Translations under genes and position numbers: made by a program
Shown: in pieces, positions 2,123-53,920 of the stretch
Layout: every line of letters begins with the position of its first letter
Numbering within the stretch: position 1 is the first letter of the stretch
The notes under the pieces: generated by a model
The model's input: only the letters and a program-made list of their open reading frames with translations
Databases searched by the model: none
What the model was told of the DNA's origin: nothing
IMG/VR virus record: IMGVR_UViG_3300042009_000026
Coordinates: 192,001 to 256,000 of that record
Strand: one strand, 5' to 3'
Source: a virus
Lineage: Duplodnaviria > Heunggongvirae > Uroviricota > Caudoviricetes
Length of the DNA stretch: 64,000 nt

Positions 2123-2206
2123 AGGAATCCGGATAATGTTCGTCTACTAGAAGATGGAACAATCCGGTATCTGGAAGACGGTACTGTCCTACGGTACCAA
2201 GAGTAG
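2123..2206 (+). other. Putative in-frame stop-codon readthrough extension of the capsid (LEDG-repeat tag)
   Basis: After TGA (2120-2122) the same frame reads RNPDNVRLLEDGTIRYLEDGTVLRYQE-TAG with no in-frame ATG/GTG/TTG. The motif recurs at the C-terminus of 28484..29023. Confidence 0.65.
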
Positions 2207-9811: not shown

Positions 9812-10240
9812 CTAGAAATGCAGTGTAACTGGATAAGGAGGCAACCAATTGATTGCATTAATCCGAGGAGTTAATGTTACAGACGTAGCTGCTGGTAGAA
9901 TAGTACCAAAGAAGAAGTCTTCATCGTAAACAGCAATGTCATAAACACTACGAAGCATTTCTAATATTTCCGTAGTGTTAGCATAATCCCCAGGCTTACC
10001 CACTAGCTTAACATCCTTCAAAGCATCATCGATACGATAGCGATTATAATAAACCACTTGCGAACCTTTGATACGAGTAGAAGTGGTCTTAGCCTGTATG
10101 GTTACTCGAGCATTACAATCATTCTGCAACCATACACCCGCATTAACAAAGTCGACATCTTTAATTTGGATAGCAGGCACGATCCCATGTAATGCACTGA
10201 ACTCATTCAAGAGTTTTTCTTTTGTGTCCGGTAAATACAT
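9812..10240 (-). CDS. Virion structural protein (phiKZ gp126/127-like family)
   Basis: ORF track. A YxR...I..L....DD pattern is shared with 10248..11123 and 28484..29023. Confidence 0.7.
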   Translation of the reverse strand: MYLPDTKEKLLNEFSALHGIVPAIQIKDVDFVNAGVWLQNDCNARVTIQAKTTSTRIKGSQVVYYNRYRIDDALKDVKLVGKPGDYANTTEILEMLRSVYDIAVYDEDFFFGTILPAATSVTLTPRINAINWLPPYPVTLHF

Positions 10241-10247
10241 GTTAACC

Positions 10248-11123
10248 TCAATCGTAGTGCAGACGTAAGAAGCCTGTCATGTTAGAAGATAGATCACTAA
10301 GTTCTAATACCACTACACGGTAGAACTCAGAACGAGAAGTCCACTTAGGGATAGTCGCCCCATTGTAGACAACCTTACAATGTGGTTCACCATCTACTAA
10401 AGAATGGACGATGTTGTTAACGGCAGGAACAGATTGGATTTGGAACTTGATACCCGATGCCTGGAATAAAGGATTCAGTAGTTGTTCTGGGTTATGATAC
10501 AACCCAACTGGAAGATCCTTAAGACTATCTCGCCAACGACTGAAGTCATAACCATTCGTGCAGTAGTTACCATTGATTTTGGCAGGATCAGGTCGAACCG
10601 TTACTTCAGGAAACTCATTCGGTTTAGTTGTCAACGTAGAGATGTCAATCTTAGACGTATTAGTTAAACGAACGCGCAAGAAACCAACAAACCGTAAGGA
10701 CTTGTCATCCGCCTGAATAATTATATCGTTATCACCTACAGCATTGAATCGATCGAAAGTTTGATGGATGAAGTCATCTGTCTCAAATACAATCTCATTA
10801 CGTTTACCAAGCTTAGTCAGAATATCAATCGTGCTAATGGGTAACGTTAAACCACGAATGTCAACAGCAAAGGTATTGCGGAAGAACTCAGTGCAATTCA
10901 GTCGATCATAAGTGAATACCGTTTCGGTAATCTCTGGCATCATGTTAACTGGATTAGTAGAACGGTTCGGAATGATTTCAATCTGAGTTAGCTTAGGACC
11001 CAACTTAACCAGTTCCTTTAACTTCACAATTCCAGGTTGGAGTTGGAAATTATATTTGTCATTGATCATGTCACAAATAGCTTGCCATGAACCTACCTTG
11101 AGGTAGTCGCGTGTGATATACAT
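10248..11123 (-). CDS. Virion structural protein (phiKZ gp127-like)
   Basis: ORF track, synteny, C-terminal GFLRLHY. Confidence 0.7.
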   Translation of the reverse strand: MYITRDYLKVGSWQAICDMINDKYNFQLQPGIVKLKELVKLGPKLTQIEIIPNRSTNPVNMMPEITETVFTYDRLNCTEFFRNTFAVDIRGLTLPISTIDILTKLGKRNEIVFETDDFIHQTFDRFNAVGDNDIIIQADDKSLRFVGFLRVRLTNTSKIDISTLTTKPNEFPEVTVRPDPAKINGNYCTNGYDFSRWRDSLKDLPVGLYHNPEQLLNPLFQASGIKFQIQSVPAVNNIVHSLVDGEPHCKVVYNGATIPKWTSRSEFYRVVVLELSDLSSNMTGFLRLHYD

Positions 11124-26634: not shown

Positions 26635-27282
26635 ATGCTTAAGATGCCGGAGAACTCAGAACCGTTTAAGATTCTGTCTTTAGACCCTGGCTCTTCGCAT
26701 CTAGGGGTAGCAATACTACTCGACATGTTGGATGGTTCAGACGTAACAATTGATGATTCCTTCACAGTTCATCTTAAAGACACCTGCCCAGAATATTCTG
26801 AATTGGGTGACTTGCATGGTAACCGCGTGATTCGTCTGATGCAACTCGGAGATGCTGTTTTAAATCTCGTGAGAACGCACAGGCCACATGCGGTGATTGT
26901 GGAGGCTAACTACTTAGGTCGTTTCGCTACTGCCTTCGCAGCGCTCGTAGAGTGCGTTGCAATGGTGCGTAGTGCTGTGTACATGTACGACCCATTCATG
27001 CCTCTTTATCAGGTTGACCCTTCCACTGCGAAGATCAATGCTGGTATGGAACGTATTAAAGGAACAGACAAGGAAGATGTACGTCGTGCAATGAGAAAGC
27101 GTAAAGGCGTCGCTTGGAACGTAAATCTAGAAGAACTAGACGAACACAGCGTCGATGCATGCGCCATTGGCGTGTACTGCGCAGAACACATTACACCTAG
27201 GGTAATGCCCGCCGAGCCAGTGAAGAAATTCACCAAGGCTAAGAAGGAACGCAAGAAGCGGAGACGAGGTAAAAGACGATGA
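26635..27282 (+). CDS. ruvC: RuvC-like Holliday junction resolvase
   Basis: ILSLDPG..HLG, IVE, KEDV and EHSVDA catalytic motifs; basic C-terminal tail. Confidence 0.85.
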   Translation: MLKMPENSEPFKILSLDPGSSHLGVAILLDMLDGSDVTIDDSFTVHLKDTCPEYSELGDLHGNRVIRLMQLGDAVLNLVRTHRPHAVIVEANYLGRFATAFAALVECVAMVRSAVYMYDPFMPLYQVDPSTAKINAGMERIKGTDKEDVRRAMRKRKGVAWNVNLEELDEHSVDACAIGVYCAEHITPRVMPAEPVKKFTKAKKERKKRRRGKRR

Positions 27283-27785
27283 ATTTTTTCAAAGGTCTAC
27301 AGTGGTTCGAATGGCTCCTGATTGGTATCGTAGTTACGATGCTCGGAGCTTCATGGTTAATCTGGAACAAATACGATGAGCGCACACTAGAAGTCGGCGG
27401 TATGAAAGTCGAAAATAGTGTACTCACGGAGACGGTGAAATATAAAGATCAGTCCGCTACCATCTCGGATCAGGTTGTCGCTGAATTTGTTCAGGATAAA
27501 GAAGATGCGAAGGCAGAGTTGGAACAGTCACGTGAAGGAGTGATTGATGACTACATTAACATGGCAACAGCCACAACCGTTGCACCCGCGACAGTTGTGG
27601 ACGTCCCTAAAACAAAGGTTACAACGAGGCCAAAGGCAACTCAAACTCGGCCCGCCACCAAAGCATCTGATGATACTGGTGATCTTGCTCGTATTAGTCT
27701 CATGGCTAACAGGATGCGCGAGCACTACTGCACAGCTGCCCCAGAACGTGGTGTCGGCTGTAATGCCGGCGGTACTAACCAATGA
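27279..27785 (+). CDS. Inner-membrane spanin (Rz-like)
   Basis: Single N-terminal TM helix, then a helical segment; overlaps a lipoprotein ORF. Confidence 0.7.
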   Translation: MNFFKGLQWFEWLLIGIVVTMLGASWLIWNKYDERTLEVGGMKVENSVLTETVKYKDQSATISDQVVAEFVQDKEDAKAELEQSREGVIDDYINMATATTVAPATVVDVPKTKVTTRPKATQTRPATKASDDTGDLARISLMANRMREHYCTAAPERGVGCNAGGTNQ

Positions 27786-28020
27786 GTGTTACGTTTCTCC
27801 GCCTCCTACTGATGAAGACATCCTTAACGCTCCACAGCGTTATCGTGTAGCCGGTAAGATGTCGGATTGGGAAGCTCGTTTCCTGTTGATGTCTGATCAC
27901 TGGCTCCTACAAACTGACGCACTTGGCGTGTGTAATAAACAAGTGCGCAAATCACGTGAGTGGGTAAACAAACATCGTGGTTTGGAGAAGCCTAATGAAA
28001 ATCTCGGAAATCCTGAATGA
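27670..28020 (+). CDS. Outer-membrane lipoprotein spanin (Rz1-like)
   Basis: Overlaps the i-spanin in the +1 frame. MILVILLVLVSWLTG|C lipobox and Pro-rich mature part. Start may lie further upstream. Confidence 0.7.
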   Translation: MILVILLVLVSWLTGCASTTAQLPQNVVSAVMPAVLTNECYVSPPPTDEDILNAPQRYRVAGKMSDWEARFLLMSDHWLLQTDALGVCNKQVRKSREWVNKHRGLEKPNENLGNPE

Positions 28021-28396
28021 GATCGACCAGAGTCCGATTTCCTCTCACTCAACTGCAGCATTAATGATTGGTTATCTGAACAGTGAATTAGCACTGGTCG
28101 GAGAGACCGCATTGACTTCGAGCTCTACGGGCGCAGAAGCCATCGCTGCAATTTACAAAACCCCACGTGAAAAGCAAGATGTTATTTTCCAAAAGGACTT
28201 TACGTCTATTCGGAAGAAAGACAGTTACAAGTTCATGGTTCTATCCATGGCTGTTCTTGCTGTAGTGGCGGGGGCTGGTTTCGCTGGAAGCGTAGCTAAG
28301 TTGGAAGGAGAGGCAGCGGCAGGTGTGACGGACGTATTCAAAGTTCTGATCACCGGGTTGTTTGAAATTGCTAAAATGCTTATTTCAGGTCAATAA
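27995..28396 (+). CDS. Membrane protein, holin candidate
   Basis: ATG after GGAG; C-terminal hydrophobic helices; located in the lysis cassette. Confidence 0.5.
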   Translation: MKISEILNEIDQSPISSHSTAALMIGYLNSELALVGETALTSSSTGAEAIAAIYKTPREKQDVIFQKDFTSIRKKDSYKFMVLSMAVLAVVAGAGFAGSVAKLEGEAAAGVTDVFKVLITGLFEIAKMLISGQ

Positions 28397-28483: not shown

Positions 28484-29023
28484 ATGATCACTACAGATCG
28501 TTTCCCGTATGACATGCCTTCCCGCGACGCGCTCGTGGAACAGGTGAATCGTGACTTGCAACGGAACTACAAACCGAACCAAGTTAGTTTTGAAGATATG
28601 TTCTTTGCTCCTCTGCCTGCTATCCCTGGCCGTACGTTTATTGAGATGACTAGTCGCCTTACTGGCCTAAAGGAATTCTTTGTATATCGCCGGTTAGATT
28701 TGGCTAATCCTAAGGCACTGGGCACAAGTACTCGCATTAAAGTGTTGGGACAACCGTCTCCAGCCAGTATCGCAAACGAAATTAATCGCAGCCGTCTGAT
28801 GTCATTCGGCCCTGATGATATTTCATTCTCCACGGTAGTTATCCAACCTCCTGAGAACACATTCGTCTATCGCTTGAAAGCGATGACAGGCAGTTACGCT
28901 TACTTCGGCGAAACAGACATTATCGTTGAAATTATGGAAGCTAACCCGTACGCTCGTTATCTTGAAGACGGCGATGCCCGGTTGATGGAAACCGGCGAAA
29001 TTCGTGAACTCGAACACGCCTGA
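28484..29023 (+). CDS. Virion structural protein (gp143 position) with C-terminal LEDG-repeat tag
   Basis: FVYRRLDL family motif; ends NPYARYLEDGDARLMETGEIRELEHA. Confidence 0.7.
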   Translation: MITTDRFPYDMPSRDALVEQVNRDLQRNYKPNQVSFEDMFFAPLPAIPGRTFIEMTSRLTGLKEFFVYRRLDLANPKALGTSTRIKVLGQPSPASIANEINRSRLMSFGPDDISFSTVVIQPPENTFVYRLKAMTGSYAYFGETDIIVEIMEANPYARYLEDGDARLMETGEIRELEHA

Positions 29024-29033
29024 GGTATATGAC

Positions 29034-29618
29034 ATGGCTATTCAAAACGCTATACTCGATTCTATTCCTTTACCTAAAGCGAATAAGTCTCGTGCAGCAG
29101 CTATTCCAACCCTAGAAGCTATCGGCAAGATTACTGGCATGTCCCCGACATTGTTGGCTACCTTCGCATCGATTGAATCGGGATTTGATTACACTGTCAA
29201 AGCATCGACATCAAGTGCAACTGGTTGGTTCCAACATCTAAATAAAACTTGGGATGATATCCTGGCGTTAACTAATGCCAAGTACAGTCTTAAGGATGAT
29301 GCTCAGCGTAGTCTCCGTTTAGATCCTCGAGCCAATGGCTTGATGGGCGCTGAACTGTTGAAGGACAATGCTCGCATTCTTCGGAGTGGCCTGGGACGTG
29401 AACCTAATGATACTGAACTATACGCCGCACATTTCTTCGGTGTTGGTGCAGCTAAGAAGTTCTTACTAGCGGATCGTAAAGCACTGGGTAAGGACTTATT
29501 CCCTAAACAAGCTGAAGCAAACGTTGGTATCTTCTACGCTCGTGATAAGAAGACAGCCCTGTCAATCGCACAGATTATCGATTTACTCGATTCTAAGGTT
29601 GCGAAACACCGTGGCTAA
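29034..29618 (+). CDS. Endolysin, SLT-type lytic transglycosylase (phiKZ gp144 catalytic domain homolog)
   Basis: ANKSRAAA, FASIES, SSATGWFQ, LMGAEL and LYAAHFFG match gp144 as recalled; ATG after GAGG. Confidence 0.9.
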   Translation: MAIQNAILDSIPLPKANKSRAAAIPTLEAIGKITGMSPTLLATFASIESGFDYTVKASTSSATGWFQHLNKTWDDILALTNAKYSLKDDAQRSLRLDPRANGLMGAELLKDNARILRSGLGREPNDTELYAAHFFGVGAAKKFLLADRKALGKDLFPKQAEANVGIFYARDKKTALSIAQIIDLLDSKVAKHRG

Positions 29619-29646: not shown

Positions 29647-30981
29647 ATGAGCGGAGCACCAGCTGCACCAAACAAAAACATGCTTTCTGGTATGGAGCCA
29701 CTTCTCACCCTTAATGGTGATGAATTTGTAGAAGTAGTTAAAAGAGCTATCGATGGTAAATATAAAAACTACCGGGTACTAGCTAGTAAACTAAGAGATG
29801 CATCCACAGCGTATGATTTCGCTGTGGAGAATGGTTTTCAGGGTACATTAGGACAATGGCTCGATTGTACTCGTGCGCTCTATACTCCTGACCCAGCTTC
29901 GAATGGTAAAGTATTCGTGGCGGATACCCAAGGTATTGGACAATGGGTCGAAGTTAATATCGGCATTGTCGAAGGGTTGCAAGAAGAACTAGATCGCGTC
30001 TTATCTCAAATCGACACATCTACGGGGGTAGCTGCAGACGCGGCTACCGCTGCAAGGTTGGCAGCAGAACAAACAGCCGCAGACGTTGTTGAATCAACAG
30101 CAGTTAAAAATACGACTGCGGACTTCGCTACTGCAGCACAAACTTCTGCTCAACAAGCAGCTAGCTCTAAAACAGCAGCCCAGGGTTCTTCATCGACTGC
30201 ACAAACAGCAGCAACTCAGGCAATTGATGCCAAAGATGCAGCTGAAACATTTGCGGCTAATGCCGAGGGTTCATTTGCAGCAGTAGTTGCGGCTAAGGAC
30301 ACTGCGGTAGGTGCAGCGACTACAGCTGTTTCTGCGAAAGATGAAGCTGTATCGATGCGTCCAGTAATTGATGAAATGACAGAAGCAGCAGAAGTAGCTT
30401 TGGCTAGTACCAATGCAGCACTTACGGAAACACGTAATGCACGTGATGCAGTAGTGGGTGCTGAAGCAGAGTTGGATTTGATGAAGTTGTCATTGGCAGC
30501 AATTACTGCTGACCCGACTAACGCTGTGGTATCATGGGAACTCGGTGCCAAAGACTTTAACTTGGTTCAAGGCGGGGCAACGTTTAAAGCTGTTGCAGCT
30601 CGACTTGCTGGTTGGAGTATGCCTGACGAAGTAGCATCTTACCTGACTACTGTTGTTTCATTGCCTAGTCATTGGGCAACCATGGACATCTATGTCAAAT
30701 GGGTAAACGAAGTGGCTAACGTAGGTAACTGTGTACTCGGTGGTGAGATCCACAAATGGAAAGTTGGAGAGACCATGAACGCTACTCCTGCGGGTGGTTC
30801 TGGTGTAATGGCGGCTAACCCGTCTCCGTATATCGTCATTGAATCTAAGGTTGCTTCTGCACTAGTGCTCGATCCGACCCGCATGACGACTATCCGTATT
30901 GCTCGTCAAGGTGCATCAGTTAACGACACATTGCTGAATGCGATGACAATCTTTTCTATCAGATTGGTTAAGACATCATGA
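29647..30981 (+). CDS. Fibre protein, MLSGME class, with Ala-rich coiled coil
   Basis: N-terminal module shared with 32407, 48597 and 49838. Confidence 0.75.
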   Translation: MSGAPAAPNKNMLSGMEPLLTLNGDEFVEVVKRAIDGKYKNYRVLASKLRDASTAYDFAVENGFQGTLGQWLDCTRALYTPDPASNGKVFVADTQGIGQWVEVNIGIVEGLQEELDRVLSQIDTSTGVAADAATAARLAAEQTAADVVESTAVKNTTADFATAAQTSAQQAASSKTAAQGSSSTAQTAATQAIDAKDAAETFAANAEGSFAAVVAAKDTAVGAATTAVSAKDEAVSMRPVIDEMTEAAEVALASTNAALTETRNARDAVVGAEAELDLMKLSLAAITADPTNAVVSWELGAKDFNLVQGGATFKAVAARLAGWSMPDEVASYLTTVVSLPSHWATMDIYVKWVNEVANVGNCVLGGEIHKWKVGETMNATPAGGSGVMAANPSPYIVIESKVASALVLDPTRMTTIRIARQGASVNDTLLNAMTIFSIRLVKTS

Positions 30982-32406: not shown

Positions 32407-35400
32407 ATGAGCGCTAATGATGTAGCACCAAACAAAAACATGCTTTCTGGTATGGAATCATTGCTCACAGTGAGCGGTGATGAATTCGCAGAAGTGATTA
32501 AACTAACCCCTGAAGGTACATATAAGAACTACCGTGTATTGGTAAGCAAGCTAAGAGCTGTATCCAACGCATATGAGTTCGCTGTACAGAATGGGTTTCA
32601 AGGTACACTAACCCAATGGCTGAATTGCACAGAGGCGTTATATACTCTTGATGCATCCGTGCGCGGCATGGTGTTCGTGGCTGATGATAACGGCATTGGC
32701 CAATGGACAGAAGTAGGCATTGGTATTATTGATGGACTGCAAGAAGAACTGGATGATGTTTTACGTCGTACCAGTGCTTCTGCTGCTGCTGCCTCGGCTT
32801 CAGCCGCTGCGGCTCAACAAGCATTAGTACAAGCTACAGGTGCAGCTACCTCGGCCACAGCCGCTAAGCTCGCGGCGATTAATGCTTCTGGTGCTGCAAG
32901 TGGTTACGCTTCTCAGGCAGCCGCTGCTGCGGTTGAAACTGAAGCCGACCGAGTTGTTGTAGTTACTACTCGCGATGAAGTTGCTGTAATTGCAGCATCT
33001 ATAGAAGAAGCGAAAACTGAAGTTGATGCAGATAAAGATGCAGCTGCACTCAGTGCTTCTGCTGCTTTGCTTTCTGAACAACATGCAGCTACTAGTGCAA
33101 CTACAGCTACAACAGCGGCTACGCTGGCTGGCGCTGCTCGTGATACCGCTGTAACATTAGCTGCTGAAATTGAAGCCTCTGTTGATCTGGCCATCGATGC
33201 TAAGAATACCGCAGTCACTTCTGCCGCCGCTGCGCAAACTGCTGCTCTAGAAGCAGCTGCAGCTCGTGATGCTGCAGAAGCAGTTGTTGTTGATGTCACA
33301 GATGCAGTAGCAGAAGTCCAAGGTTACGTTACCGAAGCTGAAGCCGCACGTGATGCAGCACAAGCAACCGTCGCAGTAGTAGTTACTGCCAAAGATCAAG
33401 CTGTAGCCGCTGCAACAGCAGCAGAGACAGCTAAAGATAATACGGTGGTATTAGTTTCATCCGCACAGGTTGCAGCAACCACAGCAGAGTCGGCTAAAAA
33501 TGCAGCAGAAGCCTCTGCATTGCAATCCACCACAGCACGTGATTCTGCCGAAGGCTTTGCAGTTGATGCACTGGCCGCAGTAGGAGAAACACAAAACTTA
33601 GTACTGTTGGCGGATGCAGCAAAAGATGCTGCCGAATTGTCTGCTGCACAAGCTACCACAGCGAAAGAAGCTACTGACGTTGCAGTTATTGCTGCACAGG
33701 GTTCAGCCACGCAGGCCACTACTGCCCGTGATGCGTCAGAAGCATTTGCTGCTAATGCATTGTCTGCAGTGGATGAAGCTCAGGCCCGTGTACTGGAAGC
33801 GCAATTGGCGGCAAGTGAAGCCAAGGCTACTGAAATCCAAGTCACCGAGCTGTCCGAAACAACGGCTGGTTACCGGGATCAATCACTGGCTGCACGTGAT
33901 GATGCTGAAGCTAATTCGATTACTGCATTGGCTGCGGCAGCAGATGCTCAAGCCAGTAAGCTGTTGGCGCAAGCCGCTGTACCAGCTGCAGCAGATGCTG
34001 CACAAGCAGAAGTCGATGCTTTCAAGCAATTACTTGTTGCTACAGGTGTAACACCTGGTGCCACAGTAGTCACTACCATCCAAGGTGGCGATAACGCAGT
34101 GTCTCGGTCTATCCAGGACAAGTTGCTGGAACAAGCTATTTCTGTTGCTGACTTCAAGCTATCGGCTGAAGGGTCCAATATTCGTCCTGCATTAGTCCGT
34201 GCTATTAAAGCAATAAAAGAAAACAAGACTAAGTCGCGTGTATTGTTGATTCCATACACAGTCGGCGAATGGACAGTAGATAGTCAAGTGTTGTTCGACA
34301 TCTCCGATTTCACATTGCTGCTCTATGGTAATGTGCGGTTGACGGCAACGACCCGTCAGAAGACTTTCTTGTTCTCTTCGGATATTATCAATGTACCGGC
34401 AGCAGCCTTGAAGAACGTTGCAGTATTTGGTAACGGCTCTTACGTCAATGGTAATGCCGATCAGATGACGTTTACTTACGCGCATGGCGATGGTTCAGAC
34501 AACGACAGTGCTGTACGCTTTAGTTACATTGACAACCTGCGTGTGTACAACGTGTGGGCAGACAATGGTCCTATTGATTCGTTCTCTACTATGCGGTGCC
34601 GTAACCAGCTCATCGATGGTTGCAAGTTCACCCGGTCTAAAGAAGACAATGGTTTCTCAGCTACTACGGATTGGGGACCAGTGTGGGAATACGGCAACTT
34701 TGATACTTACAGCTACGGCGTAGTATCTAACTGCGTAGCCGAAGACAACCAAGACTTCGGGATGACCGCCTATAATGCTTCGGGTGTCTATTTCTTGAAC
34801 AACCGTAGCCAACGTAACCGTGCTGGGTACAGCTATGAAGATAGCTATGGTGCTCCGGACACCAAGAAATACGATGGTGGCTTCTTTGGCTGCTGGGCAT
34901 GGAACTGTAAAGAGCAGGGGTTCTATATTGACGCAGATGGCATCACAATTGATCCTAACTGTAAGTCATGGAACATTCGCTATATCGGTAGCAACCCTAA
35001 CGGTCTGTTTGGTAACGGCGTAGTTATTGCTAACGTTGCTTCAGCACGAGTAGAAGGTGAACACACTGCTTGCGGTCATGCTGGCTTGGCTATCTTCAAC
35101 GGCACCGGTAATTTGATCCGTGTACATGCCAAAGGTAAGTTCAATGACAACGATGCCTCAGGTATTTTTGGTCGAGGTGTTAGTTTCCTACACATTGAAC
35201 CAGGTACCGAAGTTCGTAGCAATGGTAAAGTTCAGGTGAACGCCCAGTATAACTACGGGGTGAACATCAGCAACTCTGGTGGTGCGAACTATCTGCAAGG
35301 GGCAGGTTTAGTCAAAGTAGATGGTGCGATCATTAGCGGTAATGGCTTAGGTGCTGTCGATATCAACTACGTGAATCTCGTAGACATTCACAATGTGATT

Positions 35401-35886
35401 GGCGTCGATAACGGACAATCCGGTTCTAGCTTAGCTATTCGGGTACAAAATGCCACAACAGCACGTGTATTCGATAACCACATGGAGAGCATAACAGGTA
35501 ACCAGACATTCGTAGTTGATATTGAAGCTACGGTACAGAATGGTTACGAGGGTGGTAACACAGGTACCGGTACTACTGGTCTTGTAGTTAACAATGCCAC
35601 AGTTAAGCGGCAATCCATGCGAGCACAGTACTACGGTAGTTTCACCTACGATGCACCGAGTATTGCAGCTGGTAGTCAGGTAGCTCCGTCCTTCTCTGTC
35701 CTGGGAGCAGAAGTTGGAGACTTTGTGCAGGTGTCCTTCTCTACGGATATTGGCTTGATTTCGGTCAACGCCTTCGTGGTTACAACTGGTAACGTCCTGG
35801 TGTATTTGCGTAACAACACTGCATCGGCGATTGATCTTCCTTCCATGTCTGTACGAGTGCTGGTAACTAAGCGCAACGGCGGTTAA
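32407..35886 (+). CDS. Long tailspike/fibre: MLSGME module, Ala-rich coiled coil, beta-helix
   Basis: 1159 aa; long A/T/E-rich stalk followed by pectin-lyase-like repeats. Confidence 0.8.
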   Translation: MSANDVAPNKNMLSGMESLLTVSGDEFAEVIKLTPEGTYKNYRVLVSKLRAVSNAYEFAVQNGFQGTLTQWLNCTEALYTLDASVRGMVFVADDNGIGQWTEVGIGIIDGLQEELDDVLRRTSASAAAASASAAAAQQALVQATGAATSATAAKLAAINASGAASGYASQAAAAAVETEADRVVVVTTRDEVAVIAASIEEAKTEVDADKDAAALSASAALLSEQHAATSATTATTAATLAGAARDTAVTLAAEIEASVDLAIDAKNTAVTSAAAAQTAALEAAAARDAAEAVVVDVTDAVAEVQGYVTEAEAARDAAQATVAVVVTAKDQAVAAATAAETAKDNTVVLVSSAQVAATTAESAKNAAEASALQSTTARDSAEGFAVDALAAVGETQNLVLLADAAKDAAELSAAQATTAKEATDVAVIAAQGSATQATTARDASEAFAANALSAVDEAQARVLEAQLAASEAKATEIQVTELSETTAGYRDQSLAARDDAEANSITALAAAADAQASKLLAQAAVPAAADAAQAEVDAFKQLLVATGVTPGATVVTTIQGGDNAVSRSIQDKLLEQAISVADFKLSAEGSNIRPALVRAIKAIKENKTKSRVLLIPYTVGEWTVDSQVLFDISDFTLLLYGNVRLTATTRQKTFLFSSDIINVPAAALKNVAVFGNGSYVNGNADQMTFTYAHGDGSDNDSAVRFSYIDNLRVYNVWADNGPIDSFSTMRCRNQLIDGCKFTRSKEDNGFSATTDWGPVWEYGNFDTYSYGVVSNCVAEDNQDFGMTAYNASGVYFLNNRSQRNRAGYSYEDSYGAPDTKKYDGGFFGCWAWNCKEQGFYIDADGITIDPNCKSWNIRYIGSNPNGLFGNGVVIANVASARVEGEHTACGHAGLAIFNGTGNLIRVHAKGKFNDNDASGIFGRGVSFLHIEPGTEVRSNGKVQVNAQYNYGVNISNSGGANYLQGAGLVKVDGAIISGNGLGAVDINYVNLVDIHNVIGVDNGQSGSSLAIRVQNATTARVFDNHMESITGNQTFVVDIEATVQNGYEGGNTGTGTTGLVVNNATVKRQSMRAQYYGSFTYDAPSIAAGSQVAPSFSVLGAEVGDFVQVSFSTDIGLISVNAFVVTTGNVLVYLRNNTASAIDLPSMSVRVLVTKRNGG

Positions 35887-48596: not shown

Positions 48597-49196
48597 ATGA
48601 GCACTGAAACAGTACCAAACAAAAATATGCTTTCCGGTATGGAGTCTCTGCTCACACTGAGTGGCGATGAACTTGTGGAAGTGGTAAAGCTTATGCCTGA
48701 TGGTTCGTATAAGAACTATCGCACATTTGCTTCTAAACTCCGTGTAGGTAAAACTGCATTTGACATCGCCGTGGAGAATGGCTTTGTCGGTACAGAGGCC
48801 GAATGGCTTGCAACATTAGTAGGCGAATCCGCTTACGAGACAGCTGTTCGTTTAGGCGAGTTTGTGGGTACTGAAACCGAATGGGTTCAGTCTATGGCTC
48901 CTCTGTATGAACACAACGTTGAATCGAGTGGCCAAGCTTTGGTTGCTGGTGTAGACGGTATCGGTGCATGGACGCAACTCACTGGTGCGCACGTTGGCTT
49001 GGATAAAGTCGACAATACTACGGACATGGAAAAGCCGGTATCCGATCCACAACAAACTGAGTTCGCTCGGTATCTGTTGCGGTCTCGGACAACTACTGAA
49101 GTAATGAAGGTGCTATTGGCACTTCCAGGCATTCGGTATACAGAGGACATGACTGACATCATCTTTGATGAAGGTGTTGTGGCAGTTACCCCTTAA
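48597..49196 (+). CDS. Short fibre/adaptor protein, MLSGME class
   Basis: MLSGME module, two SAY/GF.GTE repeats, VGLDKVDNT.D..KPVS repeat. Confidence 0.75.
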   Translation: MSTETVPNKNMLSGMESLLTLSGDELVEVVKLMPDGSYKNYRTFASKLRVGKTAFDIAVENGFVGTEAEWLATLVGESAYETAVRLGEFVGTETEWVQSMAPLYEHNVESSGQALVAGVDGIGAWTQLTGAHVGLDKVDNTTDMEKPVSDPQQTEFARYLLRSRTTTEVMKVLLALPGIRYTEDMTDIIFDEGVVAVTP

Positions 49197-49837: not shown

Positions 49838-52800
49838 ATGGCTGAGTCAAATAAGAAGGGTATGATCTCAGGAATGGAGTCCCTGTTAACAATCAGTGGT
49901 GAAGAATTCCTTGAAGTCGTCCGTATGGAGACAGATGGTAGCTTCAAGAACTACCGATTGCTCATTTCCAAAATCCGTAACAATGCAGGTCTATCCGCTT
50001 ACGAGATCGCCATTCAAAATGGTTTCGTTGGTACCGTCGAGCAATGGCTAGCGTCACTCGAAGGTAAGACCGCATATCGAATCGCCGTGGACCTTGGGTT
50101 CATCGGTGATGAAGCCGCTTTTATTGCCTCTTTGAAAGGCGACAATGGCGCGGAAGGTAAGTCAATCTACGAGATCGCAATTGATACTGGGTTCGTAGGC
50201 ACCGAAGCAGATTTTCTAGACACGCTTGTAGGTAAGTCCGCTTACGAAACTTACTTAGGTCTTCCGGGTAATGCCGGTAAGACAGAAGCCGAATTTATCC
50301 TTTCGATTAAAGGCGTGAAGGGTGACACAGGCATTCAAGGTATCCAAGGGGAAGATGGTAAATCTGCATTCGAAGTATGGCAAGCCTTGCCGGGTAATAT
50401 CGGTAAAGATGAATCGGAGTACTTATACGCACTGACTGGTGCTGCTGGTGCTTCCGCTTATGAAATTGCTTTGGATGATGGCTTTGTTGGTTCTGAACTG
50501 CAGTGGCTTTCTTCCTTAGAAGGTCCTTCGGCATACGAAGTAGCTAAAGCGGCCAATCCTTCTATTCCTAGTGAAGCTGCATGGTTGGCTTCTTTGGTAG
50601 GTCCATCCGCATTTGCTGTTGCACAAGCGGCAGGATTTGTAGGTACAGAAGCACAATGGCTTGCTTCTTTGGTCGGTGATTCGGCGTATGAAGCTTGGTT
50701 AGCTGAAGGCAATGTTGGTTCAGAAGCACAGTTCCTGGAATCTCTTGAAGGTTCGGATGGTGTGAATGGTACCGATGGCGCTAACGGTGCTTCTGCTTAT
50801 CAGACCTGGCTCGGTCTGCCTGGTAATACCGGCAAAACAGAAGTTGAGTTTATCGCATCCATCAAAGGTGCGACAGGTAATGATGGCATAGACGGTATCA
50901 ATGGTGCCGATGGCGAATCGGCTTACCAAACTTGGTTGGCTTTACCTGGTAACGCTGGTAAGACAGAAGCAGAATTCATTGCTTCTTTGAAAGGCGCTGC
51001 TGGTACTAATGGAACGAATGGTCTCAATGGTAAGTCAGCTTATCAAGTTGCAGTTGAAGATGGTTTCCTCGGTTCTGAAGCCCAATGGCTAGAAAGCCTG
51101 GTTGGTCAAGAAGGTGCCATTGGCCCTGGTCTGAATGTTATTGACACCATTACACAAGAAGAATATGACGATATCGTTACTCAAGGCAATGCACTTGTTG
51201 GTGATGCCTACCTGGTCGAAACTTTCCTCTATGTCTACAATGGCACGAGTTGGGTTAAGTCTAATTCTATCCAAGGTCCAGAAGGCCAAGGTTTAAATTA
51301 TCTTGGTGAATGGCCTACTGCTATCGCCTTGCCACTTGATGTCAATTACGTCTCTGGTGATACTTACGTATGGCGGAGCTCATTGTGGACATTGGTAGAA
51401 CAACCTGATCGTAAATGGGTGGACATTGGTGTACCTGGTCCTCAAGGTAAATCCGCTTATCAAACTTGGCTGGAACTTCCAGGCAATGCTGGTAAGACAG
51501 AAGCAGAATTCATTGCATCACTCAAAGGCCCTAGTGGCGATGATGGTATCAATGGTCAGGATGGTACTAACGGTATCGATGGTGCTAAAGGCGATGATGG
51601 TGAGTCGGCTTACCAAGTTGCAGTACGTGATGGTTTCGTAGGAACCGAATTACAATGGCTTGCCTCCCTGAAAGGTGACCAGGGCGATCAAGGTATTCCT
51701 GCAGTAGCATTCGAAATCAAAGGTACACTTACCGATGTTTCAGAATTACCACGCCCTGGTAATGCTGCGGAAGCCTATTACGTTAACCGTGATTTGTATA
51801 TCTGGATCGTTGATGATGTTGTCCCGGCCAACTCCGACTATCAAAACTTCGGTTCTATTAATGGTGCTTCGGCATATGAGATCGCTGTTGAAGGTGGTTT
51901 TGTTGGTACTGAAGCGCAGTGGCTATTAACACTGAAAGGTACTGACGGGGTAGATGGCACTGACGGTACTAATGGTACAGATGGCCGCAATCTACAGGTC
52001 AAAGGTACCCAAGTTGATTTGGCTGCCATTCAAGCATTACCAACACCAGTCGATCAAGATGCATGGGTAGCATTGGACACAGGTCATCTGCATATCTACG
52101 TAACGGATACATGGATTGATGCTGGTCCTTTCCGTGGTGTGGATGGTACCGACGGCACTAACGGTGTCGATGGTGAATCTGCTTATGAAACCTATAAAGC
52201 CCTTCCGGGTAACTCAGGTAAAACTGAGGCTGAGTTTATCGCTTCGTTAAAAGGGGCAGATGGTGTTGATGGAACGAACGGTACTGACGGTCGTAATGTA
52301 ACTATTAAAGGTTCTGTTGCTAACGTTGGCGCTCTTCCTGGCGATGCTGTTGAACAAGATGCATGGACTACTCTGGACACTGGCATCCTGTACATGTGGA
52401 TTACTGGCGCATGGGTTAACCTAGGTCAGTTCCGCGGTGCTAAGGGTGACGATGGTATTCAGGGTATTGTCGGTAATGATGGTGCTCCAGGTATCGGTAT
52501 CGTTATCAAAGGTGAAGTAAACGTAATTGGGGATCTACCTGATCCATCAACTGCTGATCCAGGTGATGCGTACTACGTAGTTGCAGATAACAAACTGTAC
52601 CAAGTAAACGATGCTAACCTCTACGGCCCTGGTATTACTATTGTCGGCCCTCCGGGTGCTGATGGTATCCAAGGCATTCAAGGCCCTGCTGGTACCTCGA
52701 TCTCCATCATGGGATCTTACGCTACCGAATCGGCTCTGATTGCTGCGCATCCTACAGGTGTTGCTGGTGAAGGTTATTTGGTTGGTGACGATCTATACCT

Positions 52801-53920
52801 CTACGGTGTTAACCCAGTAGGTGGTGCTACCGAATGGTACAATGCTGGTCCTGTACGTGGTCCTAAAGGTGATCCTGGTATTCAGGGTATCCAAGGCTTG
52901 CGTGGTATCCAAGGTCTGACTGGTGAACGTGGTGCATTGTGGCTGACTCTACCAGATGGTGTTGAAGTTCCTACATCTGGCTATGGTCGCGAAGGTGATT
53001 GGGCAGTTAGTGATAACTTCGATACTTTCTACAAAGCTCCAGGCACAGGCTGGGTTCAGATCGGTCGTCTGGTAGCTGGTGATGTTAATTCACCACTGGG
53101 TAGTTTGGGTAAAGTAGTCCGTCTGGGTACCTCATGGGTAGCATTGCCTGTTGATGAAGTTCCTAATCTGGAAACAGGTAAGATCTACGCTCGTCAACTC
53201 AAAGCAGGTGAAACTGATTTGGGTGAATGGGTTGAAGTTACTTTCCCTGCATTCCCAGAACCAGCTGCTGATGATAAGCTTTACGCTCGTCGTCTTGCTA
53301 CTGGTCAGACTATCGGCGGTTGGGTAGAAGTACCTGGTGGTATTGCTGATCTGGTGACTAAAGATAACAAGCAATACATCCGTACCTTCGAGACTGCTGA
53401 CTCTGCTCCGAAATGGAAAGAGGTAGTTATCCCGGCTGGTATCGGTGAAGCTCCAACTACTGCGGGCAAAGTTTATTTGCGTAGTGGCCAGAACAACAAC
53501 TGGGTAGAATACGTTGCTCCTGCTGCTGGTATTGCTGAGGCTCCAACTGATGGTAAACAGTACATCCGTAAGAACTCAGCATGGGTGTCATTTGATCGTT
53601 ACGATCTCCCAGTTACTTCAATCTCTGCAACCGCTACTATTGATCCATTAGTAACTGCGTATATTGATGTAGATAACACTGGAGCCACAGCTAAGACCCT
53701 GACACTAAGTCCGGGTACCACTGGTCGTGCACAAACAGTAGCCATGTTAATTCGCGGCGCTGCAGGCACGATTACTTTCGCAGCAAATGGTGGTGCGGCA
53801 CTTGGTTGGAACACAGGTACGCCTCCATCATTCACTGGTGCGAAAACAGTACTGACATTCCTTTGGACTGGTTCGACTGCTACTGGTTGGATTGGTGCCC
53901 AAGGTGCAGTAGTACCTTAG
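49838..53920 (+). CDS. Collagen-like long fibre (phiKZ gp145-like)
   Basis: MISGME module, many GKSAY...GF.G.E..WL.SL.G repeats with GXY runs, C-terminal foldon-like repeats. Confidence 0.85.
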   Translation: MAESNKKGMISGMESLLTISGEEFLEVVRMETDGSFKNYRLLISKIRNNAGLSAYEIAIQNGFVGTVEQWLASLEGKTAYRIAVDLGFIGDEAAFIASLKGDNGAEGKSIYEIAIDTGFVGTEADFLDTLVGKSAYETYLGLPGNAGKTEAEFILSIKGVKGDTGIQGIQGEDGKSAFEVWQALPGNIGKDESEYLYALTGAAGASAYEIALDDGFVGSELQWLSSLEGPSAYEVAKAANPSIPSEAAWLASLVGPSAFAVAQAAGFVGTEAQWLASLVGDSAYEAWLAEGNVGSEAQFLESLEGSDGVNGTDGANGASAYQTWLGLPGNTGKTEVEFIASIKGATGNDGIDGINGADGESAYQTWLALPGNAGKTEAEFIASLKGAAGTNGTNGLNGKSAYQVAVEDGFLGSEAQWLESLVGQEGAIGPGLNVIDTITQEEYDDIVTQGNALVGDAYLVETFLYVYNGTSWVKSNSIQGPEGQGLNYLGEWPTAIALPLDVNYVSGDTYVWRSSLWTLVEQPDRKWVDIGVPGPQGKSAYQTWLELPGNAGKTEAEFIASLKGPSGDDGINGQDGTNGIDGAKGDDGESAYQVAVRDGFVGTELQWLASLKGDQGDQGIPAVAFEIKGTLTDVSELPRPGNAAEAYYVNRDLYIWIVDDVVPANSDYQNFGSINGASAYEIAVEGGFVGTEAQWLLTLKGTDGVDGTDGTNGTDGRNLQVKGTQVDLAAIQALPTPVDQDAWVALDTGHLHIYVTDTWIDAGPFRGVDGTDGTNGVDGESAYETYKALPGNSGKTEAEFIASLKGADGVDGTNGTDGRNVTIKGSVANVGALPGDAVEQDAWTTLDTGILYMWITGAWVNLGQFRGAKGDDGIQGIVGNDGAPGIGIVIKGEVNVIGDLPDPSTADPGDAYYVVADNKLYQVNDANLYGPGITIVGPPGADGIQGIQGPAGTSISIMGSYATESALIAAHPTGVAGEGYLVGDDLYLYGVNPVGGATEWYNAGPVRGPKGDPGIQGIQGLRGIQGLTGERGALWLTLPDGVEVPTSGYGREGDWAVSDNFDTFYKAPGTGWVQIGRLVAGDVNSPLGSLGKVVRLGTSWVALPVDEVPNLETGKIYARQLKAGETDLGEWVEVTFPAFPEPAADDKLYARRLATGQTIGGWVEVPGGIADLVTKDNKQYIRTFETADSAPKWKEVVIPAGIGEAPTTAGKVYLRSGQNNNWVEYVAPAAGIAEAPTDGKQYIRKNSAWVSFDRYDLPVTSISATATIDPLVTAYIDVDNTGATAKTLTLSPGTTGRAQTVAMLIRGAAGTITFAANGGAALGWNTGTPPSFTGAKTVLTFLWTGSTATGWIGAQGAVVP

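What the first reader, a model, noticed from the sequence alone, without database searches (positions are those of the whole stretch)
28943..29023. Same LEDG tag permanently fused to a second virion protein: a shared docking code
Seen: the gp143-position protein ends with NP-x-x-R-Y-LEDG-x-x-R-L-METG-x-x-R-E-L-E, the same three-unit motif as the capsid readthrough tail. Its likely paralogs at 9812..10240 and 10248..11123 lack it. Inference: the tag is a portable module appended to otherwise unrelated structural proteins (head, and probably tail) to recruit a common ligand. The best candidates are the four MLSGME-module fibres, whose genes begin just downstream. This would be a plug-and-socket system for decorating head and tail with fibres.
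Basis: partly seen in the sequence, partly recalled or inferred. Interest (0 to 1): 0.8.

Follow-up and report, generated by a model that had tools for sequence, protein, structure and literature searches.

The report
Fibre-docking peptide tag on jumbo-phage proteins
A small virion protein of this phiKZ-like giant Pseudomonas phage ends in the same 24-residue repeat peptide that follows the capsid gene's leaky stop. In many unrelated phages this peptide sits just before a fibre gene with a matching N-terminal cap, so it is most likely a portable hook that hangs fibres on the virus particle.

Summary
Observation confirmed. ORF 28484..29023 (phiKZ gp143 homologue) ends in three 8-residue units R-h-h-E-D-G-x-x. 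The 27 in-frame codons after the capsid gene's TGA encode the same motif. These are the only two such sites in six frames of the 317-kb genome (about 0.05 expected by chance). The two paralogues lack the tag.

The tail is conserved in all 44 homologues. The N-domain is a DUF7941 fold like phiKZ gp127 of the outer baseplate.

The tag is not private to this clade. In IMG/VR it ends many unrelated tail proteins, and 47 of 79 next genes start with a 'KISxL' fibre cap, against 16 of 3722 other ORFs. The window's four MLSGME modules are diverged KISxL caps; phiKZ gp145 literally starts with KISQL. Distant jumbo-phage DUF7941+tag proteins lie directly upstream of KISxL fibre genes. Arg-type tags pair with a Glu at one cap position (28/29); non-Arg tags do not (1/29), which suggests direct contact.

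One AF2 test on a cis fusion was inconclusive. I found no paper or solved structure describing the tag. The scan had already noted the tag/KISxL pairing on other DNA (e1-5773901).

The parts
28484..29023 (+). gp143-like protein (179 aa): DUF7941-type N-domain (about residues 10-150) plus a C-terminal tag
   Evidence: PHROG 2935, E 2e-33 over the whole profile. Pfam DUF7941 18 bits, below its cut-off of 27. AF2 pLDDT 84, and the best Foldseek hit is phiKZ baseplate chain 9xqd_0, E 1e-6. 49-82% identical homologues in 69 Pseudomonas phage records.
28955..29020 (+). Docking tag: three units R-Y-L-E-D-G-D-A / R-L-M-E-T-G-E-I / R-E-L-E-H-A at the extreme C-terminus
   Evidence: R158, R166, E169 and R174 are invariant, and E161, G163 and G171 nearly invariant, in 44 homologues. 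The tail aligns column for column with tags of 28 unrelated phage proteins. AF2 gives beta bridges every 8 residues at pLDDT about 70.
101..2122 (+). Major capsid protein gene ending in TGA
   Evidence: Pfam PhiKZ_MCP 749 bits; PHROG 3231.
2123..2206 (+). In-frame post-stop extension (27 codons plus stop) encoding the second copy of the tag
   Evidence: The stop is TGA and the frame stays open for 25-28 tag-encoding codons in all 15 IMG/VR relatives, in phiKZ and in Psa21.
29647..29856 (+). MLSGME (KISxL-type) N-terminal module of fibre 29647..30981
   Evidence: Alignment A3. hhalign against the KISxL profile: E 2.3e-5. The KISxL HMM hits it at E 0.003 among 1141 genome ORFs. PHROG 15433 N-terminus.
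32407..32616 (+). MLSGME module of the 1159-aa stalked beta-helix protein 32407..35886
   Evidence: A3.
48597..48806 (+). MLSGME module of the 199-aa protein 48597..49196
   Evidence: A3. KISxL HMM E 0.009. tblastn finds this module in 69 Pseudomonas phiKZ-like records.
49838..50047 (+). MLSGME-type module (MISGME) of the 1360-aa collagen-repeat fibre 49838..53920
   Evidence: A3. Collagen repeats by Pfam.
9812..11123 (-). Two tag-less DUF7941 paralogues (142 aa and 291 aa; phiKZ gp126/gp127 position)
   Evidence: Pfam DUF7941 35.7 and 62.4 bits. PHROG 2935/1037. The sequences end without the tag.
27977..28396 (+). gp142-like holin, just upstream of the gp143-like gene
   Evidence: PHROG 14484. 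A single hydrophobic segment lies near the C-terminus. Synteny with phiKZ 141-144.
29035..29618 (+). gp144-like transglycosylase (endolysin) lying between the tag gene and the first fibre gene
   Evidence: PHROG 4067/3201 transglycosylase. A GAGG Shine-Dalgarno motif precedes the ATG at 29035.

Best explanation
The last 24 residues of the gp143-like protein, three units of R-h-h-E-D-G-x-x, are a portable docking peptide. Its partner is the small N-terminal cap (KISxL type, here diverged to MLSGME) of fibre and spike proteins. In this phage that means the proteins starting at 29647, 32407, 48597 and 49838. The gp143-like protein would be an adaptor. Its DUF7941 N-domain, which resembles phiKZ gp127 of the outer baseplate, holds it on the virion, and its tail offers the hook. 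The same hook is added to a minority of capsid subunits by readthrough of the capsid gene's UGA. The capsid protein's C-terminus lies at the capsomer centre, so the same fibres could also be hung on the head.

Shown here: the two tags exist and are conserved; the tag is widespread and sits next to cap genes; the cap is homologous; an Arg/Glu covariation links tag and cap. Inferred: physical binding, probably strand addition plus an Arg(tag)-Glu(cap) salt bridge; one three-unit tag per fibre trimer; outward display on the capsid.
For: Conservation: the tail is kept in all 44 homologues down to 38% identity.

Portability: an IMG/VR scan for R-x-x-E-D-G-x-x-R-x-x-E-D-G found 87 C-terminal tags. 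The stop lies 19-24 residues after the motif start, a feature the pattern did not require. The tags sit on unrelated carriers: PHROG 1101/6284 tail hub proteins, PHROG 6305, the PHROG 1407 major tail protein family and 60-70-aa proteins.

Adjacency: 47 of 79 ORFs directly downstream of a tag match a KISxL profile, against 16 of 3722 other ORFs. In reverse, 27 of 85 independently sampled KISxL genes follow a period-8 acidic tag, against 3 of 3028 control C-termini.

Homology of MLSGME to KISxL: hhalign E 2.3e-5. The KISxL HMM's only hits in this genome are two of the four modules. It also hits PhiPA3 and Noxifer gp145-like proteins. phiKZ gp145 starts ...KGKISQLPDLATLNDSEYIELI. PHROG 15433 covers both the window fibre and a tag-adjacent fibre in L063.

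Orthologues elsewhere: DUF7941+tag proteins of about 180 aa in other jumbo contigs (Pfam 49-57 bits; hhalign 96%, E 4.7e-9). In two of the three (L063, L102) a KISxL fibre gene follows 26-34 nt downstream; for L048 the downstream DNA was not in the locus.

Covariation: Arg-type tags go with Glu/Asp at cap column X of G-x-E-x-x-X-x-V-Q in 28/29 pairs, non-Arg tags in 1/29 (Fisher p 6e-14, uncorrected for phylogeny). The window's caps have Glu there and its tags are Arg-type.

Virion context: the 201phi2-1 homologue was found in virions by mass spectrometry, and the phiKZ record annotates gp143 as 'structural protein' and gp145 as 'structural head protein'. The N-domain model matches phiKZ baseplate chain 9xqd_0, E 1e-6. 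The C-terminal arms of the phiKZ capsid protein form a helix bundle at the hexamer centre (PMC11297242).
Against: No binding was measured or modelled. AF2 on a natural in-frame tag-stop-cap fusion left the tag at pLDDT about 55, undocked. Fibres are probably trimers and the tool folds single chains, so this is inconclusive rather than negative.

In phiKZ-like phages the tag gene and the fibre gene are separated by the endolysin gene.

phiKZ gp143 was published as a cytoplasmic holin-specific lysis regulator (PMC12894885) and is non-essential, whereas gp145 appears essential.

Neither gp143 nor gp145 is among the 40 proteins modelled in the phiKZ virion atlas.

Co-occurrence inside the Pseudomonas clade is a single phylogenetic event. 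The covariation is not corrected for relatedness. The adjacency profile was trained on 35 of the 47 positives.
Confidence: 0.65

Rival explanations
1. [quoted passage not shown] Its conserved tail would serve that regulation, and the resemblance to the capsid extension would be unrelated to fibres.
For: The gene sits between holin and endolysin here as in phiKZ. Plasmid experiments in PMC12894885 show gp143 shifting holin triggering by 10-15 min and blocking a truncated holin, and AF3 predicts contact between the N-domain and the holin.
Against: The published contact involves the first globular domain, not the tail. The same tail occurs on tail hub and tube proteins of phages that have no such lysis cassette, and after the capsid stop. 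The homologue is a virion protein by mass spectrometry. In two distant DUF7941+tag orthologues the next gene is a fibre gene, not an endolysin. The two roles are not mutually exclusive.
Confidence: 0.12
2. The tag is a self-association or DUF7941 polymerisation element. Tags from different chains zip together, or the tail docks on the N-domain of another DUF7941 protomer, head to tail as proposed for Goslar gp22/gp23. This would tie gp143 to capsid readthrough tails or into filaments without involving KISxL caps.
For: The Goslar preprint predicts head-to-tail DUF7941 oligomers through the region after the N-domain and shows gp22 filaments. The tail follows the N-domain exactly where that linker would be. 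The repeat is beta-prone.
Against: DUF7941 is exclusive to chimalliviruses according to the preprint, yet the tag is widespread on unrelated carriers. The linkers of the tag-less paralogues show no such motif. This rival explains neither the cap adjacency nor the Arg/Glu covariation.
Confidence: 0.1
3. The tag binds something other than a phage protein, for example a host surface polymer, Ca2+, or an intracellular assembly factor such as the phage nucleus or PhuZ. Its position next to fibre genes would then only reflect the usual hub-then-fibre gene order.
For: The units are acidic with a D/E-G turn that could chelate metal. Fibre genes often follow hub genes anyway. Tagged major-tail-protein-like genes are not followed by a cap gene.
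Against: The carriers differ greatly, from hub proteins to 60-aa mini-proteins, DUF7941 proteins and the capsid protein, while the adjacency to caps persists. Residue-level covariation between tag and cap is hard to explain without contact.
Confidence: 0.08

Closest known systems
Modular anchor/adaptor systems for phage receptor-binding proteins (T7 gp17 N-domain on gp11/gp12; G7C gp66-gp63.1; CBA120 TSP1-4; Klebsiella KP32-type anchor-branch spikes). Recalled from general knowledge, not tested here.
   Same: A conserved N-terminal module on otherwise unrelated fibres or spikes docks on a defined site of a structural protein, so binding bodies can be swapped.
   Different: In this phage the site is a 24-residue linear repeat peptide at the extreme C-terminus, portable between unrelated carriers including the capsid protein. 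In the known systems it is a folded domain interface. No solved structure contains the tag.
Qbeta A1 protein (readthrough of the coat gene's UGA)
   Same: A leaky UGA at the end of the capsid gene would give a minority of extended subunits that carry an extra function on the particle surface.
   Different: This is a tailed dsDNA jumbo phage. The extension is only 27 residues and copies a tag that is genomically fused to another virion protein. Protein-level readthrough is not shown.
DUF7941 (PF25613) proteins of chimalliviruses: phiKZ gp126/gp127/gp143 and Goslar gp22/gp23 (preprint 10.64898/2026.04.21.720040)
   Same: The same N-domain fold. gp127 is modelled at the tip of the outer baseplate, and family members carry host-recognition domains or form filaments.
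   Different: The gp143 subfamily replaces the linker and C-domain with the docking tag. Its place in the virion is unknown. The preprint does not mention the tail or its copy after the capsid stop.
phiKZ gp143 'lysis regulator' (PMC12894885)
   Same: Orthologue: about 49% identity and the same position between holin and endolysin.
   Different: In the passages I searched, that paper treats gp143 as a purely cytoplasmic protein and does not discuss the C-terminal repeat, its virion association or its copy after the capsid stop.
PhicrAss001 tail fibre gp22 docked on the THA2-THB hub (PDB 7QOJ; PMC10172136)
   Same: The N-terminus of a trimeric fibre is held by a small hub. Residues 28-63 of gp22 weakly resemble the cap (E 0.45).
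   Different: The match is not significant. The hub is a folded A2B trimer, and I did not check whether it carries any repeat tag.

Membership tests
C-terminal period-8 acidic tag paired with a KISxL fibre cap (noted earlier in this scan, e1-5773901; no paper found) | At least 2.5 units of [R/h]-h-h-[E/Q]-[D/E]-[G/N]-x-x ending within a few residues of the stop | tested here: met
   The tail at 28955..29020 aligns without gaps in the repeat to 28 tags from unrelated contigs. The stop lies 22 residues after the first Arg, within the 19-24 range of the family.
C-terminal period-8 acidic tag paired with a KISxL fibre cap (noted earlier in this scan, e1-5773901; no paper found) | The next gene downstream begins with the KISxL cap | tested here: not met
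   The next gene is the endolysin (29035..29618). The first cap gene starts at 29647, two genes downstream. The feature is met in two distant DUF7941+tag orthologues, L063 and L102/L034.
C-terminal period-8 acidic tag paired with a KISxL fibre cap (noted earlier in this scan, e1-5773901; no paper found) | The genome encodes KISxL-type caps, and these show the Arg(tag)/Glu(cap) pairing | tested here: met
   The four caps (A3) match the KISxL profile. Glu is invariant at the covarying column, and both tags are Arg-type.
DUF7941 (Pfam PF25613) | Score above Pfam's gathering threshold (27 bits) | tested here: not met
   18.1 bits, E 0.0019, covering profile positions 4-151 of 276. Some close homologues carry a precomputed PF25613 hit.
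DUF7941 (Pfam PF25613) | N-domain fold shared with solved or annotated members | tested here: met
   Foldseek finds phiKZ outer-baseplate chain 9xqd_0 at E 1e-6, probability 1.00, TM 0.69. PHROG 2935 is shared with the 142-aa paralogue, which passes Pfam. hhalign to L102, a Pfam-positive protein: 96%.
phiKZ gp143 lysis regulator | Orthology and synteny (spanins, holin, gp143, endolysin) | tested here: met
   tblastn gives about 49% identity over 97% of the length to phiKZ-group phages. The gene order matches phiKZ 141-144.
phiKZ gp143 lysis regulator | Changes holin triggering time | not testable with these tools
   This needs the induction assays of PMC12894885.
Qbeta-type capsid readthrough protein (for the second copy of the tag) | A conserved leaky stop followed by an in-frame extension that evolves as protein | tested here: met
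   TGA in 18 of 18 phiKZ-like sequences (17 relatives and the window). The frame stays open for 25-28 codons, with the motif kept and the other residues varying.
Qbeta-type capsid readthrough protein (for the second copy of the tag) | The extended protein is present in virions | not testable with these tools
   No proteomic data are at hand.

The most novel reading that the evidence does not exclude
A short three-unit peptide (R-h-h-E-D-G-x-x, three times) is a natural, widely shared 'snap tag' of tailed phages. One linear tag captures the N-terminal caps of a trimeric fibre, with an Arg-Glu pair setting specificity classes. Phages move it between carriers at will. In phiKZ-like phages they write it behind a leaky capsid stop, so that a dosed number of host-binding fibres sits on the head as well as on the baseplate.
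Probability: 0.45. Interest if true: 0.85.

Novelty: new variant of a known kind. Interest (0 to 1): 0.72.

Why it matters
If the tag is the hook for KISxL-capped fibres, several things follow.

- It assigns a structural role to phiKZ gp143 and suggests a location for gp145-type proteins; neither is placed in the current phiKZ virion atlas.
- It gives a purpose to the conserved UGA readthrough of the capsid gene, namely fibres on the head.
- It defines a simple sequence rule for finding which phage proteins carry fibres in metagenomes.
- A 24-residue peptide that recruits a fibre would be a handy natural part for swapping or displaying receptor-binding proteins in laboratory phage work.
- It would qualify the published view of gp143 as only a lysis regulator.

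Tried and rejected
- PDB sequence searches with the gp143-like protein, the 199-aa cap protein, the cap profile and the tag profile gave nothing significant. The best was PhicrAss001 gp22 at E 0.45.
- Pfam on 35 caps gave no family.
- A literature search for the motif strings returned only noise. Searches for phiKZ readthrough and for gp143 found no description of the tag.
- AF2 was run on a natural in-frame tag-stop-cap fusion from L065 with a mixed alignment (A6). The cap folded confidently, but the tag stayed at pLDDT about 55. The tool returns no coordinates or PAE, so contacts could not be read. The result is inconclusive.
- I looked for concerted evolution between the capsid tag and the gp143 tag within genomes. 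Only eight usable pairs were available, five from one clade (201phi2-1 gave no gp143 tag match). phiKZ uses Asn in both tags (LENG), but this is too little for a test.
- My first idea was that the protein is a tail-tube paralogue, because it lies near a 723-aa gene. I dropped this: the paralogues sit at the gp126/gp127 position and are DUF7941 proteins.
- A first regex for the covarying column mis-registered on the window's caps. I used the hhalign register instead.

Full report
**What the window is.** The window is bases 192001-256000 of a 317,367-bp genome. Its capsid and gp143-like genes are 82-97% identical at the protein level to Pseudomonas phages Psa21, D6 and RVTF4. They are about 50-75% identical to phiKZ, PhiPA3 and 201phi2-1. 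Gene order follows phiKZ:
- major capsid protein at 101..2122;
- two DUF7941 paralogues at the gp126/gp127 position (9812..11123, minus strand);
- a lysis block with a spanin-like gene (27279..27785), a holin-like gene (27977..28396), the gp143-like gene (28484..29023) and a transglycosylase (29035..29618);
- then fibre and spike genes.

**Observation.** The gp143-like protein ends ...EANPYA RYLEDGDA RLMETGEI RELEHA. The capsid gene stops at TGA (2120..2122) and continues in frame as RNPDNV RLLEDGTI RYLEDGTVL RYQE, then a stop. In all six frames of the whole genome, the tandem motif occurs only at these two places. Residue shuffles give about 0.05 per genome. A looser period-8 acidic pattern also finds only these two. 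The two paralogues lack the tail. Four proteins share the MLSGME module.

**Conservation.** Forty-four homologues of the gp143-like protein, down to 38% identity, all end in the tag. The three Arg residues and one Glu are invariant; the other Glu and both Gly residues are nearly so. After the capsid gene, all 15 IMG/VR relatives, phiKZ and Psa21 have TGA followed by 25-28 open codons. These keep R-x-x-E-D/N-G-x-x-R-x-x-E-x-G-x-x-x-R-x-L-E while the other positions vary. I checked eight distant chimalliviruses: LucasX, RP31, Deimos-Minion, an SPN3US-type phage, Kp24, PCH45, sm033 and Eowyn. Six end the capsid gene in TAA with nothing behind it. RP31 and PCH45 end in TGA but have no tag. An earlier report of this scan reached the same reading of the capsid readthrough (e1-5611340, e1-5611346); my check of it is independent.

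**What the carrier protein is.**
- PHROG 2935 covers the whole protein including the tail.
- Pfam DUF7941 matches the N-domain below threshold, and the paralogues above threshold.
- AF2 with 44 sequences gives pLDDT about 90 for residues 11-150. The tail is at about 70, with beta bridges every eight residues.
- Foldseek's only significant hit is a 150-residue chain of the phiKZ outer-baseplate map, 9xqd_0 (E 1e-6, TM 0.69). By its length and entry it is probably the gp127 N-domain, but I did not confirm the chain's identity.
- The Goslar preprint lists phiKZ gp126, gp127 and gp143 as DUF7941 proteins. It proposes that the family sits on the peripheral baseplate and forms head-to-tail filaments.
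- The 201phi2-1 homologue was identified in virions by mass spectrometry, and phiKZ gp143 is annotated 'structural protein'.
- A 2026 paper calls phiKZ gp143 a holin-specific lysis regulator, on the basis of plasmid timing shifts of 10-15 min and an AF3 model that involves the first domain.
- TnSeq finds the gene non-essential.
- The phiKZ virion atlas does not mention gp143, gp145 or gp146.

**The tag is widespread.** I scanned IMG/VR for DNA encoding R-x-x-E-D-G-x-x-R-x-x-E-D-G. Most hits are C-terminal. In 87 cases the stop follows 19-24 residues after the motif start, after a third partial unit R-x-h-E. The pattern required neither the stop nor the third unit. The carriers are unrelated:
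- 640-880-aa J-like hub proteins (PHROG 1101/6284);
- other tail proteins (PHROG 6305);
- a major-tail-protein family (PHROG 1407);
- mini-proteins of 60-70 aa;
- the phiKZ-type proteins.
The window's two tags align with them without gaps in the repeat. The tag profile matches no chain in the PDB.

**The partner.** In these loci the next gene, starting within -4 to +35 nt, usually begins M-x-x-K-I-S-x-L...L-x-G-x-E-L-x-E-x-V-Q-x-G-x-x-K. It then continues as a varied tail fibre, tailspike or collagen-like protein.
- With a profile of 35 such N-termini, 47 of 79 ORFs directly downstream of a tag match at E below 1e-3, against 16 of 3722 other ORFs in the same loci. The profile was trained on 35 of the positives, and the background includes spurious ORFs.
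- The reverse sample was drawn only by the pattern MA-x-KKIS-x-L...G-x-E. There, 27 of 85 distinct genes follow a gene that ends in a period-8 acidic repeat, against 3 of 3028 control C-termini.
- That sample shows the Arg-type tag to be one subclass of a wider family, for example YLLQENTDYILQENNSKIIL.
An earlier report of this scan on a different genome noted the same pairing (e1-5773901). I found it independently here before reading that note.

**MLSGME is a KISxL cap.**
- Profile-profile comparison of the four window modules with the 35 caps gives 76% probability, E 2.3e-5. It aligns LSGMEsLLTlsGdEfvEVvk with ISeLxxAxxLxGxELxExVQ.
- Run over all 1141 ORFs of the genome, the cap profile hits only 29647 (E 0.003) and 48597 (E 0.009).
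- It also picks up the gp145-like proteins of PhiPA3, Noxifer and a close relative of the window.
- phiKZ gp145 begins MANVTDKGKISQLPDLATLNDSEYIELI.
- PHROG 15433 covers the N-terminus of both the window fibre and a tag-adjacent fibre in contig L063.

**Independent lineages.** Contigs of 180-238 kb (L048, L063, L102/L034) encode proteins of about 180 aa with a Pfam-significant DUF7941 N-domain and the same tag. hhalign of L102 against the gp143 family gives 96%, E 4.7e-9, tail included. In L063 and L102/L034 the capped fibre gene follows directly, 26-34 nt downstream. The separation by the endolysin gene in phiKZ-like phages therefore looks like a local rearrangement, not evidence against coupling.

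**Co-occurrence.** In the phage collection, the gp143 homologue, the module and the phiKZ-type capsid gene are each found in 69 Pseudomonas phage records. Outside Pseudomonas, gp143 has no match and the module gives only weak or partial matches. I could not intersect the lists, and this is one clade, so it counts as a single event.

**Covariation.** Cap column X is defined in G-x-E-x-x-X-x-V-Q. Among tag-cap neighbours, tags with Arg at unit position 1 go with Glu or Asp at X in 28 of 29 pairs. Tags with an aromatic or aliphatic residue at unit position 1 go with Pro, Val or Ala, and only 1 of 29 has an acidic residue (Fisher p 5.6e-14, no phylogenetic correction). The non-Arg group contains several different tag types. 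The window's tags are Arg-type, and all four caps have Glu at X in the hhalign register, as does phiKZ gp145. This is the kind of signal a direct Arg-Glu contact would leave.

**Head as well as tail.** The phiKZ capsid paper shows the C-terminal arms of the capsid protein forming a six-helix bundle at the centre of each hexamer, and reaching the outer protein gp244 at pentons. A 27-residue extension would start there. The phiKZ GenBank record labels gp145 and gp146 'structural head protein', whereas the TnSeq preprint calls them putative tail fibres and essential. That the extension points outward is an inference.

**Structural test.** No multimer prediction was available. I used a natural locus (L065) where the tag gene's stop is followed in frame by the cap gene. 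I read the stop through and gave AF2 a mixed alignment. The cap (a short helix plus a hairpin) reached pLDDT 87-94, but the tag stayed near 55. Fibres are probably trimers and the tool returns no contacts, so this neither supports nor refutes binding.

**Verdict.** Its plug-and-socket interpretation is the best-supported reading, at about 0.65. It rests on conservation, portability, two-way neighbourhood enrichment, cap homology, independent DUF7941+tag/fibre pairs and residue covariation. Binding, stoichiometry and capsid display remain inferred. The published lysis-regulator role of gp143 is a rival that may coexist with this one. I found no paper or solved structure that describes the tag.

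Noticed in passing
L030 (Serratia phage PCH45, capsid gene end at locus 1439): The PCH45 capsid gene ends in TGA-C and is followed by 48 open in-frame codons rich in acidic residues (..DLYLQTEDLTDTVDTEQGNPIELE..). They do not match the tag. This may be another capsid readthrough extension.
   Followed up: no
L035, L065, L081, L125, L126, L145, L146: In several unrelated contigs the tag gene's stop codon (mostly TAA) is followed in the same frame, after 0-7 codons, by the start of the capped fibre gene. Readthrough there would fuse hook and fibre. This may be chance, since one arrangement in three is in frame.
   Followed up: partly
L055, L060, L086, L096, L099, L100, L128, L136, L148: A family of proteins of about 160 aa resembling major tail proteins (PHROG 1407) ends in RLLEDG-x-x-RLLEDG-x-x-RLLEAA. 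It is followed by a non-cap gene (MS..IQF.A.L.RR.E..L). If the tag is a fibre hook, these tail tubes might carry fibres along their length.
   Followed up: no
L036, L082, L112, L062, L118/L139: In some proteins the tag lies inside the protein, once as two copies about 30 residues apart. The peptide is therefore not always a terminal element.
   Followed up: no
L273 (phiKZ 147276-152926): The phiKZ GenBank record labels gp145 and gp146 'structural head protein'. The TnSeq preprint calls them putative tail fibres, and the 2026 virion atlas does not mention them. Their location is unresolved.
   Followed up: partly
window 27279-28020: A gp141-like ORF with an N-terminal membrane helix contains, in another frame, an ORF with a lipobox-like LTGC (27544..28020). 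This is the embedded i-spanin/o-spanin layout described for phiKZ 141/141.1.
   Followed up: no
window 2123-2140 and 28943-28954: The N-P just before the first Arg of both tags is shared only among the Psa21-like phages. phiKZ has G-K-G-Y before one tag and S-D-T-I before the other. This hints at recent copying between the two tags in this clade.
   Followed up: partly
L152-L271 (for example L157, L160, L182-L184): Many MADKKISALT...GTEVLPIVQSGATVK fibre genes follow a gene that ends ...NGVYQQKNTY-x-V-x-G-x-x-LTFS-x-APP-x-TS-x-IEV-x-Y and carries no acidic repeat. This may be a different kind of socket partner for the same cap.
   Followed up: no
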